From an uncultured virus (IMG/VR IMGVR_UViG_3300044638_000550) (taxonomy: Duplodnaviria > Heunggongvirae > Uroviricota > Caudoviricetes): DNA of 20,000 bases. The notes under the pieces are model-generated. The model was not told the DNA's origin. It saw only the letters and a list, made by a program, of their open reading frames with translations, and made no database searches. The translations under genes were made by a program, and so were the position numbers. The stretch lies in the IMG/VR virus record IMGVR_UViG_3300044638_000550. One strand, written 5' to 3'. Positions 863 to 3,479 of this stretch are shown here, piece by piece. Position 1 is the first letter of the stretch. Each line of letters opens with the position of its first letter.

Positions 863-1413
863 ACGTCCAAGAATTACTTAAACTGAATGTCAATGAACAT
901 ACAGAAAAGAAAGCAAACCTAACTTATCTGTCATGGGCTTGGGCATGGGCTGAAGCACTCAAGGCCGATGCTAAAGCCACGTTCAAAGTAGAAATGTTTG
1001 GCGACAAATGTTTCATGGACATCAACGGCACGGCAATGGTTTGGGTTACGGTCACCATGTTTGACAAACCAATGACTTGCCAGCTACCCGTGATGGATCA
1101 CCGCAACAAAGCCATTCAAAGCCCCGATGCTTTCCAAGTCAACACCGCCATCATGCGTTGCATGACCAAAGCACTTAGCTTGCATGGTCTTGGTCTATAT
1201 TTGTATAGCGGTGACGATCTGCCATCTTTTGTAGAGCCTGAGTCAACCATTGACCCAGATAGCATGACAGACTTGTTTTTGGCCATCCACAACGCTAAGA
1301 CGCAAGACGAATTGAAGTTGGCCTACAAAATAGCTTACTCGGCTTGTGATGGCGACAAGGCTTGGCAGATTAAAGTGATTGCAGCTAAAGATGAAGCAAA
1401 GGGGAAATTATGA
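859..1413 (+). CDS. single-strand annealing protein, Sak3/DUF1071 (Rad52-like) family
   Basis: N-terminal VNEHTEKK..LTYLSWAWAW and C-terminal NTAIMRCMTKALSLHGLGLYLYSGDDLP motifs are typical of DUF1071/Sak3; adjacent to an exonuclease. Confidence 0.85.
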   Translation: MNVQELLKLNVNEHTEKKANLTYLSWAWAWAEALKADAKATFKVEMFGDKCFMDINGTAMVWVTVTMFDKPMTCQLPVMDHRNKAIQSPDAFQVNTAIMRCMTKALSLHGLGLYLYSGDDLPSFVEPESTIDPDSMTDLFLAIHNAKTQDELKLAYKIAYSACDGDKAWQIKVIAAKDEAKGKL

Positions 1414-2036
1414 TTGAAATGATTGAACAACGCTCAGACCAATGGTTTGCAGCACGAATTGGCAAAGTCACCGCATCCCGTGTGGCCGATGTGCTTGCCA
1501 AGACTAAAACGGGCTATTCGGCAACCCGTGACAACTACATGGCTCAATTGGTATGTGAACGCCTAACGGGTGAAAAGGGAGAGAGTTTTACCAATGCTGC
1601 TATGCAACACGGCACAGAAACAGAACCCCTAGCCAGAGCAGCTTATGAGGCGCTTAAAGACGTTTTAGTTGATGAAGTGGGGTTTGTGCCTCACCCATCA
1701 ATAATCATGGCGGGTGCGTCCCCTGATGGGCTTGTGGGGGACGATGGCTTGCTAGAAATCAAATGCCCCAACACCGCCACGCACATTGAGACTTTGTTGT
1801 CTCAAACCGTGCCAGGCAAGTACAACACGCAAATGCAATTCCAAATGGCTTGCACGAACCGTAGCTGGTGTGACTTTGTGTCTTTTGACAATCGTCTGCC
1901 CCAAGAACTTCAATTGTTTGTTAAACGTGTCCCAAGGGACAATATGTATATCAGGCTAATGGAAGAAGAAATTGTCAAATTCTTAAATGAACTTGACATC
2001 AAAATTGCTCAACTTATGGAAATTAAAAATGTCTAA
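1410..2036 (+). CDS. YqaJ / lambda-exonuclease-family 5'-3' exonuclease
   Basis: Motifs QRSDQWFAARIGKVTAS, AMQHGTETEPLAR, GASPDGL, LEIKCP (PD-(D/E)xK) and QMQFQM...WCDFVSFD. Confidence 0.93.
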   Translation: MIEMIEQRSDQWFAARIGKVTASRVADVLAKTKTGYSATRDNYMAQLVCERLTGEKGESFTNAAMQHGTETEPLARAAYEALKDVLVDEVGFVPHPSIIMAGASPDGLVGDDGLLEIKCPNTATHIETLLSQTVPGKYNTQMQFQMACTNRSWCDFVSFDNRLPQELQLFVKRVPRDNMYIRLMEEEIVKFLNELDIKIAQLMEIKNV

Positions 2037-2268
2037 ACTTTACGAAATTACCGTTGTATCGGGTAAATACAAAAACAAAGAGGGTGTGGAAAAATCACGC
2101 TATCAAACCATTGGCTCGGTTATTGAAACAAAGAACGGCCCAATGCTTAAACTTGATAGCATCCCACTTCCCGATGGCGGTTGGAACGGTTGGGCTTATC
2201 TAAACACCCCAAAGCCAAAAGAGGAATATAAAGGTTTGCCACGGGACGATGAAGAAATCCCATTCTAA
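2029..2268 (+). CDS. small putative ssDNA-binding protein (79 aa) with acidic DDEEIPF tail
   Basis: Start reassigned to ATG 2029, overlapping the exonuclease stop. Beta-rich aromatic/basic core, SSB-type C-terminal tip, and position after SSAP and exonuclease. Confidence 0.7.
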   Translation: MSKLYEITVVSGKYKNKEGVEKSRYQTIGSVIETKNGPMLKLDSIPLPDGGWNGWAYLNTPKPKEEYKGLPRDDEEIPF

Positions 2269-2273
2269 TTAAC

Positions 2274-2330
2274 GGGGGGAACGCTGTGCAAAGGATTTTC
2301 CTAGCTTGCAGACGAGCAGCTAGTACCCCC
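2274..2330 (+). ncRNA. structured intergenic RNA element with loop-E/sarcin-ricin (bulged-G) motif
   Basis: Nested pairings GGGGG/CCCCC, GAAC/UAGUA internal loop, GCTG/CAGC, TGCAA/TTGCA and AGGA/TCCT occupy most of the intergenic gap. Confidence 0.7.
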
Positions 2331-2348
2331 ACCAAATAAGGAAACATC

Positions 2349-2675
2349 ATGGACTATAAAGAAACATTTAAACGCATTTTTGCCATGCCTGAATTCCCAA
2401 GAGTTCGTGCAAATGATCCCCTTACATCGTTTGAGGCAGCGGAATCAATCAAAGACTCTGTGTCTCAGCACCACCAAACTATTTTGGATTGCCTTCAAAA
2501 ACACGGTGCTTTGGGCAAAGATGGCATTTCAGCCCGTACAAACTTAGATGGCAATCAAGTGGCTAGGCGACTCAACGAAATGAAAGTTATTGGGCTTATC
2601 CAATTGACGGGCAACACGGTTAAATCAAACTCAGGCAGAAACGAAAGAGAATGGCAATGTATCCACTTGGACTAA
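2349..2675 (+). CDS. putative winged helix-turn-helix DNA-binding protein
   Basis: RANDPLTSFEAA motif followed by ILDCLQKHGALGKDGISARTNLDGNQVARRLNEM..GLI (HTH) and a beta wing; RBS AAGGA. Confidence 0.7.
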   Translation: MDYKETFKRIFAMPEFPRVRANDPLTSFEAAESIKDSVSQHHQTILDCLQKHGALGKDGISARTNLDGNQVARRLNEMKVIGLIQLTGNTVKSNSGRNEREWQCIHLD

Positions 2676-2845
2676 ATGGCAATCAACCCGTCCACAAATT
2701 ACGATCTTGTAATAAGTGTGATGAAGTCAAACCACCCGAGGGGGGGATTGACATGGGGCATAAATGGATTTGCCAAAGTTGTTGGATTTCTAGGAAAATA
2801 GGCCGACACCAAAGGAATACAAATGACCAAAGACGATCTAATTAG
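2651..2845 (+). CDS. small Zn-finger protein (CNKC...CQSC); start may be 2657
   Basis: Two CxxC motifs; overlaps its neighbours as in a tightly packed operon. Confidence 0.65.
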   Translation: MAMYPLGLNGNQPVHKLRSCNKCDEVKPPEGGIDMGHKWICQSCWISRKIGRHQRNTNDQRRSN

Positions 2846-3017
2846 TTTGCTACGCATCACGGGCGCTCAAGAAGCCTCCATAGACGCTGTATGCGCTGCT
2901 TACGATGCGGGTTGGAACGATGCCCTTGATGACTACGTTAAACGCTTAGAGGCGCTTTCTTTTGGCAAAGACACGATAGACAGTTTTTCGGTGTTTATCA
3001 GGTCAGCTAAGAAATAG
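2823..3017 (+). CDS. small hypothetical phage protein (64 aa)
   Basis: RBS AAGGA upstream; AYDAGWNDAL-type motif common in small phage proteins; last + strand gene. Confidence 0.7.
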   Translation: MTKDDLISLLRITGAQEASIDAVCAAYDAGWNDALDDYVKRLEALSFGKDTIDSFSVFIRSAKK

Positions 3018-3479
3018 CGCTCTTTCATCAATTCTGCGCTTTTGCAAACCTTTTAGGACTTTGCCACCCGCCATGCAATATTTTAGAAGTTCCTCGGCAG
3101 CGCCCGCCATATCGCCACGCAACACCTTTTGACGTAAGGTTGACCTTTGTAGAGTGCCAAGACCTACATTGAAAGAAAATGAAACGAGCGAATCAAACTG
3201 TCCTTGAGTAAGAGGCACAGGGCAATAAGTAGCCACTCCTTTCTCAAACCTAGCAAGATCAGCCCTAAGAATTGCATTTACTTCTTCTTTTGAAAACGCT
3301 CGATTATCTTCTTGAGCCAAAGGGAAACCGCCTCTTTGATCAATTGGCATCTTGCCTTGATTTGGGTAAAGAACATGACCTACTCCTATTGTCCATAACT
3401 TAGCTGGGCATTGATACGGTTTAAATCTTACACCCTCATGGTGCTTGATCATTTCAATTGTTTTAGAACTGACGTTCAT
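3003..3479 (-). CDS. endolysin, GH24 (T4-lysozyme-like) muramidase, no SAR domain
   Basis: HEG..PYQC.....TIGVGH triad (E15-C24-T30), QFDSLVSFSFNVG and AGGKVLKGLQKRR.DERALF. Confidence 0.93.
   Translation of the reverse strand: MNVSSKTIEMIKHHEGVRFKPYQCPAKLWTIGVGHVLYPNQGKMPIDQRGGFPLAQEDNRAFSKEEVNAILRADLARFEKGVATYCPVPLTQGQFDSLVSFSFNVGLGTLQRSTLRQKVLRGDMAGAAEELLKYCMAGGKVLKGLQKRRIDERALFLS

What the first reader, a model, noticed from the sequence alone, without database searches (positions are those of the whole stretch)
2274..2330. Intergenic RNA with an exact sarcin-ricin/loop-E motif directly behind the SSB-like gene
Seen in sequence: G2274-2278 pairs with C2326-2330. G2279-A2280-A2281-C2282 faces U2321-A2322-G2323-U2324-A2325. 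GCTG(2283-86) pairs with CAGC(2317-20), followed by a 6-nt bulge GACGAG, TGCAA(2287-91)/TTGCA(2306-10), and a cap AGGA-TTT-TCCT. Established: GAA/AGUA with a flanking C-U pair is the bulged-G (loop E / S-turn) motif of the rRNA sarcin-ricin loop, usually a protein- or tertiary-contact site. There is no U-tract, so it is not a terminator. Inference: a phage ncRNA or cis element. It could be a decoy for SRL-binding proteins or ribotoxins, a processing or autoregulatory site for the recombination operon, or a translational control element for the wHTH gene whose RBS lies about 8 nt downstream.
Basis: partly seen in the sequence, partly recalled or inferred. Interest (0 to 1): 0.8.

Follow-up and report, generated by a model that had tools for sequence, protein, structure and literature searches.

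The report
Conserved phage S-turn hairpin RNA family
The small folded RNA behind this phage's DNA-binding-protein-like gene is real and belongs to a widespread, apparently undescribed family of freshwater-phage RNAs that keep a ribosome-type kink and a tRNA-like end almost unchanged, but what it does is still unknown.

Summary
The hairpin at 2274-2330 is exactly as described. Its folding energy alone is unremarkable (z -1.55), but conservation is decisive.

- **Shared parts:** a G-run/C-run terminal helix; a near-invariant GAA/AGUA (bulged-G, S-turn) internal loop; a covarying P2 helix rich in G-U pairs, which places the function on the + strand RNA; a purine-rich 3' bulge; a hypervariable distal hairpin; and an unpaired ACC tail.
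- **Copy number:** one per genome in 10 of 10 near-complete genomes.
- **Position:** usually 5-7 nt after the stop codon of an SSB-type gene from several unrelated protein families. Downstream genes vary, and some copies end an operon.
- **Databases:** no match in Rfam 15, no tRNA call, nothing found in four literature searches, and almost absent from cellular genomes.

It is not a canonical terminator, not a ribotoxin decoy as drawn, and not in general a leader for the wHTH gene.

Best guess (about 0.4): the helix end resembles E. coli 4.5S RNA and tRNA acceptor ends, so host stable-RNA processing enzymes (RNase P, RNase E, exonucleases) cut there and yield a stable protein-binding RNA. Function is untested; no RNA data were available.

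The parts
2029..2268 (+). Upstream gene: a 79-aa protein ending in an SSB-type acidic tip (..DDEEIPF). Its ATG overlaps the stop codon of the YqaJ exonuclease gene.
   Evidence: no Pfam or PHROG hit; 428 relatives; beta-strand model, no OB-fold match, best Z 2.6.
2269..2273 (+). 5-nt G-free spacer (UUAAC) between the stop codon and the element, with C at position -1.
   Evidence: Family-wide, the gap is 4-9 nt in 58 of 73 cases. Position -1 is C in 72%, and G is 2% or less at -2 and -3.
2274..2278 (+). P1, 5' strand (GGGGG).
   Evidence: P1 length matches on the two sides in 166 of 177 unique elements.
2279..2282 (+). Internal loop, 5' side: GAA plus the flanking C.
   Evidence: With these positions left free in the search, they read GAAA in 88 of 93 unique matches.
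2283..2286 (+). P2, 5' strand (GCUG).
   Evidence: Covariation: pair 1 is GC 89 / GU 54; pair 3 is UA 22, CG 13, GC 11, AU 9, UG 5; pair 4 is GC 107, AU 11, GU 8.
2287..2310 (+). P3 (UGCAA 2287-91 with UUGCA 2306-10) and the variable cap (2292-2305).
   Evidence: The cap and its length differ among close relatives.
2311..2316 (+). 6-nt purine-rich bulge GACGAG on the 3' strand.
   Evidence: Relatives have GACGAG, GACGAA, GGCGAG or GCAAGA here.
2317..2320 (+). P2, 3' strand (CAGC).
2321..2325 (+). Internal loop, 3' side: U plus AGUA, with G2323 as the candidate bulged G.
   Evidence: These positions read GAGTA in 92 of 93 unique matches when left free.
2326..2330 (+). P1, 3' strand (CCCCC).
2331..2333 (+). 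Unpaired ACC tail, followed by a G-free A/U-rich stretch.
   Evidence: Not part of any search pattern. Family-wide, +1 is A in 90%, +2 is C in 89%, +3 is C in 95%, and +4 to +7 have G at 1% or less.
2338..2675 (+). Shine-Dalgarno sequence AAGGA (2338-42) and the downstream wHTH gene (2349-2675, phrog_1123, weak HTH_24 match).

Best explanation
The hairpin is a member of a widespread, single-copy structured RNA family of freshwater phages. It acts as RNA on the gene-sense strand. It sits in the 3'-UTR position of SSB-type genes in replication and recombination modules.

**Shown**
- The conserved basal part has five elements: a terminal helix that starts with G and is G-C rich; an S-turn-type GAA/AGUA loop; a 4-bp P2; a purine-rich 3' loop; and a single-stranded RCC tail.
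- Both flanks are G-free and A/U-rich.
- The distal hairpin varies freely.

**Inferred mechanism**
- The helix end is read like the end of a stable RNA (tRNA acceptor stem, 4.5S RNA).
- RNase P would cut 5' of the first G, using the RCC tail.
- RNase E and 3' exonucleases would trim the A/U-rich trailer back to ACC.
- The polycistronic early mRNA would thus be severed just after the SSB-type cistron. A stable hairpin RNA would be released, or left as an end. Whole elements measure 38-72 nt in the type-2 form; the window copy spans 60 nt from G2274 to C2333.
- Its S-turn and purine-rich loop would form a binding platform for a protein not yet identified.

What that bound RNA does is not known.
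For: **Structure and strand**
- 87.7% of cells paired against 81.1% in shuffles (0 of 500 shuffles reach it) and 45-59% when the partner is slid.
- G-U pairs occur in 54 of 144 sequences at the first P2 pair.
- Model hits lie only on the gene-sense strand, in all 41 matches over 320 kb.

**Invariance of the loop**
- 88 and 92 of 93 unique matches, with the loop positions left free.

**Helix end and tail**
- P1 has equal lengths on both sides in 166 of 177 elements.
- ACC or GCC follows in 154 of 177, although it was never part of a search pattern.
- Both flanks are G-free.
- E. coli ffs, fetched, begins GGGGG and ends CCCCCACCC followed by AUUU. That is the same end architecture.
- The RNase P review (passages read) states three relevant points: pre-4.5S RNA is a natural RNase P substrate; model hairpins are cleaved; and the P15 GGU pairs with the RCC of RCCA.

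**Not a general signal**
- One copy in 10 of 10 near-complete genomes.

**Acts apart from a downstream cistron**
- Some copies are followed by a canonical terminator (L083), by a convergent terminator (L186, L174), or by about 200 nt of noncoding DNA (L090).
- Tandem copies occur in L040/L042, L134 and L183, and two copies flank a small ORF in L097/L106. Both fit an RNA product whose dose matters.
Against: - No RNA data exist: no ends, no abundance, no cleavage.
- The base after RCC is U (92), C (42) or A (20) of 154, so an encoded CCA is the exception.
- Position -1 is mostly C.
- ARAGORN finds no tRNA-like gene in 92 loci.
- The family model scores E. coli ffs at only 7 bits, so the likeness is confined to the helix end.
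- An RNase P cut would leave the upstream SSB-type message without a protecting 3' hairpin. That is odd for a protein needed in bulk.
- In the window's own phage group the element is dispensable or replaceable. Of 80 relatives, 8 have lost AGUA, 23 carry only a 5-bp GGGGC-N3-4-GCCCC hairpin without ACC, and 2 have nothing.
- The hosts are unknown, so which RNase P type applies is also unknown.
Confidence: 0.4

Rival explanations
1. Passive cis-acting 3' stabiliser or decay barrier. After an endonuclease cut in the A/U-rich trailer, the G-C-rich hairpin blocks 3' exonucleases. The SSB-type message then outlives the distal cistrons and the protein is made in bulk. The S-turn and ACC only strengthen the block or bind a helper.
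For: - The element sits 4-9 nt after the stop codon in 58 of 73 cases, while the distance to the next start spreads over 6-33 nt.
- 32 of 70 unique upstream proteins end in an acidic-aromatic SSB-type tail, against 1 of 45 downstream proteins.
- Upstream families include phrog_27714 (21), small SSB (6), Gp2.5-like SSB (2) and other SSB types. phrog_27714 is modelled as an OB fold.
- 23 of 80 relatives keep a plain 5-bp G-C hairpin at the same spot.
- 3' ends formed by RNase E cleavage and exonuclease trimming inside an operon are reported for gal mRNA (PMC11925234; I saw only the start of its abstract).
Against: - A simple barrier would not need an invariant S-turn, a purine-rich loop or an RCC tail.
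- It would be expected after other highly expressed genes too, yet there is one copy per genome.
- Some copies are followed directly by a canonical terminator that would do the same job (L083).
Confidence: 0.25
2. Translational operator. The small HTH or wHTH protein encoded just downstream binds the hairpin and blocks its own ribosome-binding site 8 nt away.
For: - The SD lies 8 nt after the hairpin in the window.
- phrog_1123 wHTH genes follow the element in 6 of the 29 downstream proteins that I scanned, out of 46 found. A 92-aa weak-HTH protein follows in several more.
- In MW202462 the element directly precedes a MarR-family gene, although the SSB gene lies two genes upstream.
- Aca1 and Aca2 HTH proteins bind RNA hairpins in their own 5' UTRs (PMC13551039, passages read).
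Against: - Downstream genes also include DNA polymerase, primase, RusA, MazG, a recombination directionality factor (RDF) and a Cas4-like exonuclease.
- Some copies have no adjacent downstream gene.
- Homologous wHTH genes persist behind a minimal hairpin (23 loci) or with no hairpin (2 loci).
- Spacing is tight to the upstream stop codon, not to the downstream start.
Confidence: 0.08
3. A signal directed at RNA polymerase. It could be an attenuator or terminator that needs no U-tract, or a put-like antiterminator RNA acting in cis on the polymerase that made it.
For: - It is a stable G-C hairpin at a module boundary.
- It is single-copy within one operon.
- TTTT lies within +4 to +12 in 48 of 176 elements.
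Against: - ACC separates the stem from any U-run.
- Only 48 of 176 have such a run.
- In L083 a canonical terminator follows within a few bases.
- The constant distance to the stop codon is not predicted by this idea.
- I could make no sequence comparison with put RNAs, because no such family is held in Rfam as far as searches show.
Confidence: 0.08
4. Mimic of a host RNA that titrates a host factor. One version is the first reader's SRL or ribotoxin decoy. Another is a mimic of SRP RNA domain IV for Ffh.
For: - The loop has the GAA/AGUA signature.
- One minimal member (L234) aligns locally to the helix-8 region of Plant_SRP (13 bits, E 5.9).
- The minimal forms are GNRA-capped and share GCAGC with ffs domain IV.
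- The helix end is 4.5S-like.
Against: - For the SRL version: there is no GAGA-type tetraloop, and the module is oriented the other way (recalled).
- For the SRP version: no Bacteria_small_SRP match at E up to 10 in 18 loci or in record G002. Only 1 of 18 loci gave even the weak plant hit. Most members lack a tetraloop at a fixed distance.
Confidence: 0.05
5. DNA-level element: a hairpin or cruciform at an origin, a recombination linker, or a protein-binding site in the replication module.
For: - It is single-copy and lies in the replication and recombination module next to SSB, primase, polymerase or wHTH genes.
Against: - G-U pairs are frequent: 54 of 144 at one P2 pair, with further U-G pairs. 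On the other strand these would be C-A mismatches.
- The orientation is always that of the flanking genes.
- The conserved asymmetric loop is an RNA-type motif.
Confidence: 0.03

Closest known systems
Bulged-G (S-turn, sarcin-ricin / loop E) module of rRNAs
   Same: The sequence signature is identical: GAA opposite AGUA, closed by a G-C pair on the sheared G-A side and by a non-Watson-Crick pair on the other side. That pair is C-U in the window and A-G in 128 of 177 relatives. The signature is near-invariant across the family.
   Different: - It sits in a phage mRNA hairpin, not in rRNA.
- The G-C-closed side faces the open terminal helix rather than a tetraloop (recalled comparison).
- No GAGA loop is present.
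- The three-dimensional fold has not been tested.
- 8 of 51 extended elements in the window's group have replaced it.
E. coli 4.5S RNA precursor and model hairpin substrates of RNase P
   Same: A single long hairpin begins with a G-run paired to a C-run and is followed by unpaired ACC and an A/U-rich trailer. ffs runs GGGGG...CCCCCACCC then AUUU. The RCC tail is what the RNase P P15 loop pairs with (PMC11143913).
   Different: - There is no overall homology: the family model scores ffs at 7 bits and there is no SRP model hit.
- The element is much shorter (the window copy is 60 nt from G2274 to C2333).
- It is embedded in an mRNA.
- Cleavage has not been tested.
Intercistronic processing or stabiliser hairpins of polycistronic mRNAs (T7 RNase III sites and REP-type stabilisers, both recalled; gal operon RNase E 3' ends, PMC11925234, abstract start only)
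   Same: It lies between cistrons, close behind a stop codon. It has an irregular hairpin with a conserved internal loop. It could uncouple the fates of the upstream and downstream messages.
   Different: - There is one copy per genome rather than one at many boundaries.
- The minimal members (38-40 nt) look too short for an RNase III substrate (recalled requirement).
- The S-turn and RCC tail are not features of those elements.
Aca1/Aca2 5'-UTR RNA motifs bound by HTH proteins (PMC13551039)
   Same: It is a phage RNA hairpin just upstream of the ribosome-binding site of a small HTH gene.
   Different: - Those motifs lie at the 5' end of the transcript, next to a promoter and its DNA operator.
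- This element lies inside or at the end of an operon, keeps its distance to the upstream stop codon, and often has a downstream gene that is not an HTH protein.
Earlier notes of this scan on freshwater-phage RNA cassettes (e1-6233237, e1-5870240)
   Same: e1-6233237 shares short words with a type-2 member and describes tRNA-ended small RNA modules of a widespread undescribed family. e1-5870240 describes an S-turn hairpin family in another phage.
   Different: These are unchecked AI notes on other DNA. They describe arrays behind promoters or next to tRNA-like genes. Here there is a single copy behind an SSB-type gene, with no tRNA within 1.2 kb in 92 loci.

Membership tests
Bulged-G / sarcin-ricin (loop E, S-turn) motif | AGUA opposite GAA in an asymmetric internal loop | tested here: met
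   Window 2279-81 and 2322-25. Found in 88 and 92 of 93 unique relatives with these positions left free.
Bulged-G / sarcin-ricin (loop E, S-turn) motif | A Watson-Crick pair closes the G-A side and a non-canonical pair lies on the other side | tested here: met
   G2278-C2326 and C2282/U2321. Family-wide the flanking pair is A-G 128, A-U 24, C-U 12, A-A 10 of 177.
Bulged-G / sarcin-ricin (loop E, S-turn) motif | The three-dimensional S-turn with a bulged-G base triple | not testable with these tools
   Needs chemical probing or a solved structure. RNAfold does not model it and draws Watson-Crick pairs instead.
rRNA sarcin-ricin loop mimic (ribotoxin or elongation-factor decoy) | A GAGA-type tetraloop directly capping the bulged-G module (recalled definition) | tested here: not met
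   The side of the module that would bear the tetraloop is the open helix P1. The distal cap is AGGAUUUUCCU and varies among relatives.
Intrinsic (rho-independent) terminator | A U-tract starting 0-2 nt after a G-C-rich stem | tested here: not met
   ACCAAAUAAGG follows the stem. The scan lists no + strand terminator here. ACC intervenes in 144 of 177 elements. A canonical terminator follows the element in L083.
Hairpin-type RNase P substrate (pre-4.5S-like) | A helix starting with G at +1, paired to the 3' strand, followed by unpaired R-C-C | tested here: met
   Window G2274...C2330 plus ACC 2331-33. RCC follows in 154 of 177. The same end is seen in ffs. The definition comes from PMC11143913.
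Hairpin-type RNase P substrate (pre-4.5S-like) | Cleavage by RNase P at the 5' side of +1 | not testable with these tools
   No RNA holder was listed. An enzyme assay is needed.
tRNA / tmRNA gene | A cloverleaf or tRNA-like domain recognised by ARAGORN | tested here: not met
   0 genes in the window and in 92 loci carrying the element.
Bacterial SRP (4.5S) RNA, Rfam RF00169 | A match to the family covariance model | tested here: not met
   No hit at gathering score in the window. No hit at E up to 10 in window 2200-2420 or in 18 loci. 0 matches in record G002, while the control genomes ring.
Any Rfam 15 family | A match at or near the gathering score | tested here: not met
   The only hits on or overlapping an element were Plant_SRP (13 bits against a gathering score of 105) and two snoRNA families at 13-15 bits.
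HTH-bound 5'-UTR operator (Aca-type) | Obligate pairing of the RNA with a cognate HTH gene directly downstream | tested here: not met
   Downstream genes are diverse or absent. The wHTH gene is present without the element in 25 of 80 relatives.

The most novel reading that the evidence does not exclude
The element is a phage-made stable decoy RNA. It would be excised like a tRNA and would present a tRNA/4.5S-like acceptor end (G-C helix plus ACC, completed to ACCA) on a rigid S-turn scaffold. It would soak up a host factor that acts on such ends. One candidate is an abortive-infection toxin that modifies tRNA CCA ends; such nucleotidyltransferase or pyrophosphokinase toxins are recalled knowledge, not tested here. 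The decoy would be made together with the replication genes that trigger the defence. The hypervariable distal hairpin and the occasional tandem copies would then reflect an arms race and dosage.
Probability: 0.1. Interest if true: 0.85.

Novelty: new variant of a known kind. Interest (0 to 1): 0.66.

Why it matters
Conserved structured RNAs of phages are few, and most known ones come from cultured model phages. This one has several unusual properties together:
- It is abundant in lake viromes.
- It is single-copy.
- It is tied to SSB-type genes of unrelated folds.
- It is built from a near-invariant rRNA-type module plus a tRNA-like end.
- It is missing from Rfam.

If it is processed by RNase P, it would extend tRNA-style punctuation to phage mRNAs. 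If it binds a host or phage protein, it would define a new RNA-protein pair in early infection. Either way it is a ready candidate for an Rfam family and for simple bench tests.

Tried and rejected
**RNA family and tRNA searches**
- Rfam at gathering score on the window found nothing.
- Rfam at E up to 10 on 2200-2420 gave only two snoRNA chance hits.
- Rfam at E up to 10 on 18 family loci gave three weak hits. Only one lay on an element (Plant_SRP, 13 bits).
- ARAGORN found no tRNA or tmRNA in the window or in 92 loci.

**Sequence collections**
- blastn of 1400-3100 against cultured and GenBank phages matched only weakly, over the exonuclease gene.
- blastn of a minimal family member found only two uncultured 'Manatee Spring' records.
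- The window's own assembly is not held. The nearest record, G001, has no match to 1900-2800.
- A genome-contig scan for the dominant form found 4 hits, all on short contigs of freshwater MAGs. No host could be named.

**Expression**
- No RNA holder was listed among 20 runs.

**Protein folds**
- The fold search with the window's 79-aa protein model found no OB fold, best Z 2.6.

**SRP likeness**
- The family model on ffs scored 7 bits.
- RF00169 on record G002 gave no match.

**Literature**
- Four searches found no description of this family.
- In the 224-motif paper, a term search of the main text found no mention of SSB, sarcin, loop E, freshwater or RNase P. Its supplements were not opened and could list a related motif.
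- The Minerva preprint's phage ncRNA array is tied to a reverse transcriptase and is unrelated.

**Readings considered and dropped**
- SECIS or readthrough signal: stop codons vary among UAA and UGA, and in-frame stops follow.
- -1 frameshift site: no slippery sequence before the stop codon.
- K-turn: no G-A pair on the unbulged strand.
- Mobile repeat: it is single-copy.
- Promoter: the upstream sequence is unconserved coding DNA.

**Pattern hits excluded**
- Three of the 120 hits (L087, L141, L153) looked like chance matches. They were left out of alignment A1 and got no model hit at E 0.001.
- L075 was also left out of A1 because it is a deletion derivative.
Full report
**1. The observation**

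- P1 is G2274-78 with C2326-30.
- The loop is GAAC (2279-82) opposite UAGUA (2321-25).
- P2 is GCUG with CAGC.
- A 6-nt bulge, GACGAG, lies at 2311-16.
- P3 is UGCAA with UUGCA.
- No U-tract follows. AAGGA lies 8 nt downstream and the ATG at 2349.

RNAfold returns essentially the same hairpin at -22.6 kcal/mol, but its z-score against shuffles is only -1.55. The reverse strand folds about as well. Thermodynamics alone would therefore not single it out.

The exact signature does stand out. It occurs once in the window against 0.01 expected.

**2. Setting in the window**

The + strand carries a recombination module:
- a Sak annealing protein (859-1413);
- a YqaJ exonuclease (1410-2036);
- a 79-aa protein from the ATG at 2029, ending in ..DDEEIPF;
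- the hairpin;
- a wHTH gene (2349-2675, phrog_1123);
- two small ORFs.

The module then meets a converging block of lysozyme, tail and head genes on the - strand.

The 79-aa protein has no Pfam or PHROG match. Modelled with 28 aligned sequences (pLDDT 70), it is three long beta strands plus a disordered tail. No OB fold appears among solved chains; the best Z is 2.6. 'SSB-like' therefore rests on its acidic C-terminal tip only.

**3. Close relatives**

A search of viral contigs with that protein confirmed 428 relatives and kept the best 80, at 84-100% identity. I read the DNA behind the stop codon in all 80 and sorted them with a script.

The script gave 39 loci with a full element, 7 altered, 2 deletion derivatives, 23 minimal hairpins, 2 with none, 1 truncated and 6 'other'. 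By eye, the six 'other' loci are:
- L018: a full element with one mismatch in P1;
- L040 and L042: two tandem copies each;
- L074: the contig ends inside the element;
- L047: an altered loop;
- L072: a different gene follows.

The final tally for the 80 loci is:

| Class | Loci |
|---|---|
| Extended hairpin with GAA/AGUA | 43 |
| Extended hairpin with the 3' loop strand changed (GAUCCCCCC or CGUAGCCC forms) | 8 |
| Internal deletion derivatives (one still keeps GAA and AGUA in a mini-hairpin) | 2 |
| Only a GGGGC-N3-4-GCCCC hairpin, no ACC | 23 |
| No hairpin | 2 |
| A different gene follows | 1 |
| Cut by the contig end | 1 |

P2 changes in a compensating way (GCUG:CAGC, GCCAU:AUGGU, GCUAC:GUGGU). 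The cap varies freely in sequence and length.

The element is thus conserved but not indispensable in this phage group. The homologous wHTH gene is present whichever form precedes it.

**4. A much larger family**

All but three looked like true members, and they lay in many unrelated gene contexts.

The dominant form has the same P1, GAA and AGUA. P2 reads GCGG opposite CAGC (with a G-A at the third position). A further small internal loop and a CUG:CAG helix follow, and then a variable hairpin.
- Whole elements of this form measure 38 to 72 nt.
- The shortest are GNRA-capped.

*Test of loop conservation without circularity.* I scanned with the loop positions left as N. Of 120 matches (93 unique), the 5' side read GAAA in 88 unique sequences and AAAA in 4. 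The 3' side read GAGTA in 92. One match was a chance hit.

*Covariation.* I used an alignment of 144 unique elements (A1; four pattern hits were left out as chance matches or a deletion form). Results:
- 87.7% of cells are paired, against 81.1% in shuffles (0 of 500 shuffles reach it) and 45-59% when the partner is slid.
- The first P2 pair is G-C in 89 sequences and G-U in 54.
- The third is U-A 22, C-G 13, G-C 11, A-U 9, U-G 5, and otherwise G-A.
- The fourth is G-C 107, A-U 11, G-U 8.

The abundance of G-U pairs places the constraint on the + strand RNA.

*Other structural regularities.*
- P1 is 4+4 in 92 and 5+5 in 74 of 177 unique elements, and unequal in only 11.
- In the dominant form P3 also covaries. 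There I chose the register that paired best, which flatters the count.

*Flanks, which were never part of any pattern*:
- After the C-run, +1 is A in 90%, +2 is C in 89% and +3 is C in 95%.
- Then come four positions with G at 1% or less. Position +4 is U 60%, C 27%, A 12%.
- Before the G-run, -1 is C in 72% and the next positions are A or U.

**5. Distribution**

A covariance model (R1) finds the window element at 57.7 bits. In 320 kb of relatives' DNA it gave 41 matches in 55 sources, never more than one per source. All were on the gene-sense strand at the expected site.

In ten near-complete phage records there is exactly one hit each:
- five of 49-66 kb;
- five of the window's own group, 32-34 kb, two with terminal repeats.

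Tandem copies occur in L040/L042, L134 and L183. Two copies flanking a small ORF occur in L097/L106.

Elsewhere the family is scarce:
- Among GenBank phages it was found only in two uncultured spring-water genomes.
- In 185,579 species' genomes the dominant form occurs four times, all on short contigs of freshwater MAGs.
- DNA runs that hold the window are lake or freshwater metagenomes.

I counted at least 172 distinct element sequences in what the capped scans returned.

**6. Neighbours**

In 83 instances on 80 loci, 73 have a same-strand open frame of 45 codons or more ending just upstream. The gap to the element is 4-9 nt in 58 of them and 5-7 nt in 48. A same-strand start within 60 nt downstream was found in 49, at distances spread from 6 to 33 nt.

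PHROG families of the 70 unique upstream proteins:

| Family | Number |
|---|---|
| phrog_27714 | 21 |
| Small SSBs (phrog_18154) | 6 |
| Gp2.5-like SSBs | 2 |
| Another SSB type | 1 |
| Pam3 gp34-like | 1 |
| Cas4-like exonucleases | 4 |
| Nucleotidyltransferases | 2 |
| HNH | 1 |
| Other unknown families | 4 |
| No match (several of these are the window's own type) | 28 |

phrog_27714 has no Pfam match.
- Its model (pLDDT 61, core above 80) aligns best to the PhiC31 RDF fusion (Z 7.3), BRCA2 OB folds (Z 6.1) and RB69 and T4 gp32 (Z 4.7 and 4.6), followed by many RPA-type OB folds.
- These are middling scores, but every listed fold is of the ssDNA-binding kind.
- The proteins have four conserved cysteines, a long low-complexity linker and an acidic tip.

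Independently of family, 32 of 70 upstream proteins end in an acidic-aromatic tail, against 1 of 45 downstream proteins.

Downstream genes are varied. I scanned 29 of the 46 found:
- wHTH phrog_1123 (6);
- one each of RusA, MazG, DNA polymerase, primase, RDF and Cas4-like exonuclease;
- three with other families of unknown function, one of them behind the chance-match locus L087;
- 14 with no match, including a recurrent 92-aa protein with weak HTH hits.

Some elements end an operon:
- In L083 a canonical terminator follows within a few bases.
- In L186 and L174 an A-run plus hairpin follows, which reads as a terminator for the opposite strand.
- In the L090 subgroup about 200 nt of noncoding DNA follow.

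**7. What this implies**

- The element works as RNA, in the sense orientation, as part of the early replication and recombination transcript.
- It belongs with the end of the upstream cistron rather than with the start of the next one.
- It is not a general punctuation mark, because there is one per genome.
- It is not a canonical terminator. ACC intervenes, only 48 of 176 have a U-run nearby, and real terminators can follow it.
- It is not in general a leader of the wHTH gene.

What is conserved is the basal sixteen or so layers of the helix plus both single-stranded flanks. That is what a protein or ribonucleoprotein recognising a helix end would see.

The nearest thing I know with such an end is a stable-RNA precursor. 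E. coli 4.5S RNA, fetched here, starts GGGGG and ends CCCCCACCC followed by AUUU. The RNase P review that I read in passages makes three points:
- pre-4.5S RNA is a natural substrate;
- simple hairpins are cleaved;
- the enzyme's P15 GGU pairs with the R-C-C of the 3' end.

I therefore favour processing by the host's stable-RNA enzymes, giving a stable hairpin RNA or hairpin-ended message that carries an S-turn platform. This step is inference. There are no RNA data.

The points against it are set out in the Against line. The main ones are:
- the base after ACC is seldom A;
- the likeness to 4.5S RNA is limited to the end (7 bits);
- a 5' cut would strip the upstream message of its hairpin;
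- natural variants lack the S-turn or the whole element.

The plain-stabiliser reading explains the SSB link and the 5-bp hairpins better. It does not explain the invariant loop, the ACC tail or the single copy.

**8. Comparison with known things**

- The loop meets the sequence definition of the bulged-G module. Its fold is untested.
- It is not an SRL mimic as drawn.
- It matches no Rfam 15 family.
- One minimal member aligns weakly to helix 8 of the plant SRP model (13 bits, E 5.9). The minimal forms share a GNRA cap and the letters GCAGC with ffs domain IV. The bacterial SRP model finds nothing, so I treat this as a lead only.
- HTH proteins that bind hairpins in their own 5' UTRs are documented for Aca1 and Aca2, which keeps the operator rival alive for the window itself.
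- Two earlier notes of this scan touch the same ground. One shares short words with a dominant-form member and calls it a widespread undescribed family with tRNA-like ends. One describes an S-turn hairpin family in another phage. They are unchecked notes, not independent evidence, but they do mean the scan has met this family before on other DNA.

**9. Verdict**

The family appears undescribed:
- three Rfam scans and four literature searches found nothing;
- a term search of the main text of one motif-catalogue paper found nothing;
- the supplements of that paper were not opened.

Function remains open. The mechanism I commit to is tRNA/4.5S-style processing into a stable protein-binding RNA, at about 0.4.

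Noticed in passing
window 2029-2268: The 79-aa protein carries an SSB-type acidic C-terminal tip. Its model is three long beta strands with no OB-fold match (best Z 2.6). It could be a minimal or novel ssDNA binder, or a mimic of the host SSB tail that competes for SSB-interacting proteins. Its ATG overlaps the YqaJ stop codon (2029-2036).
   Followed up: partly
L025-L038, L049-L056, L059, L080 (about 6-7 nt after the stop codon of the homologous gene): 23 of 80 relatives carry only a 5-bp GGGGC-N3-4-GCCCC hairpin without the ACC tail at the same spot. L014 and L075 look like internal deletions of the full element. L060 and L066 have no hairpin at all.
   Followed up: partly
L081, L083, L091, L093, L099, L103 and others (upstream ORFs, e.g. 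L103 220-1191): phrog_27714 proteins (about 250-330 aa, no Pfam match) have four conserved Cys, a long Ala/Pro/Lys-rich linker and tips such as DWDDE or DLNFDD. The model is OB-fold-like and is nearest to the PhiC31 RDF fusion (Z 7.3), BRCA2 OB folds and gp32. They are probably an unannotated phage SSB family related to Pam3 gp34-like proteins (Atlas feature score 0.93).
   Followed up: partly
L088, L112, L120; L097/L106 (between two copies): Small Cys-rich ORFs (about 50-85 codons) ending in CCYGN.C.T.CY-like tails precede the element. In L097/L106 such an ORF sits between two copies of it. They match no family.
   Followed up: no
L085, L090, L102, L118, L157, L170, L178 (e.g. L090 1184-1456): A subgroup lies behind a Cas4-like exonuclease gene inside a roughly 270-nt noncoding stretch. 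It has extra conserved sequence on both sides of the element and an AAC tail instead of ACC. It may be part of a larger RNA.
   Followed up: no
L086, L128, L176 (just 3' of the element): A second conserved stretch (AGCCCAGC.GGAGGTGGCGCT-like) follows the element in three unrelated loci.
   Followed up: no
L040/L042 3243-3370; L134 1195-1345; L183: These loci hold tandem copies 9-14 nt apart. In L134 the first copy has a C-G as its outermost P1 pair and lacks the ACC tail.
   Followed up: partly
L201 (MW202462) 1849-3225: In this complete uncultured genome an HNH gene and a 45-codon ORF lie between the SSB gene and the element, which directly precedes a MarR-family gene. Insertions can therefore separate the element from the SSB gene.
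   Followed up: no
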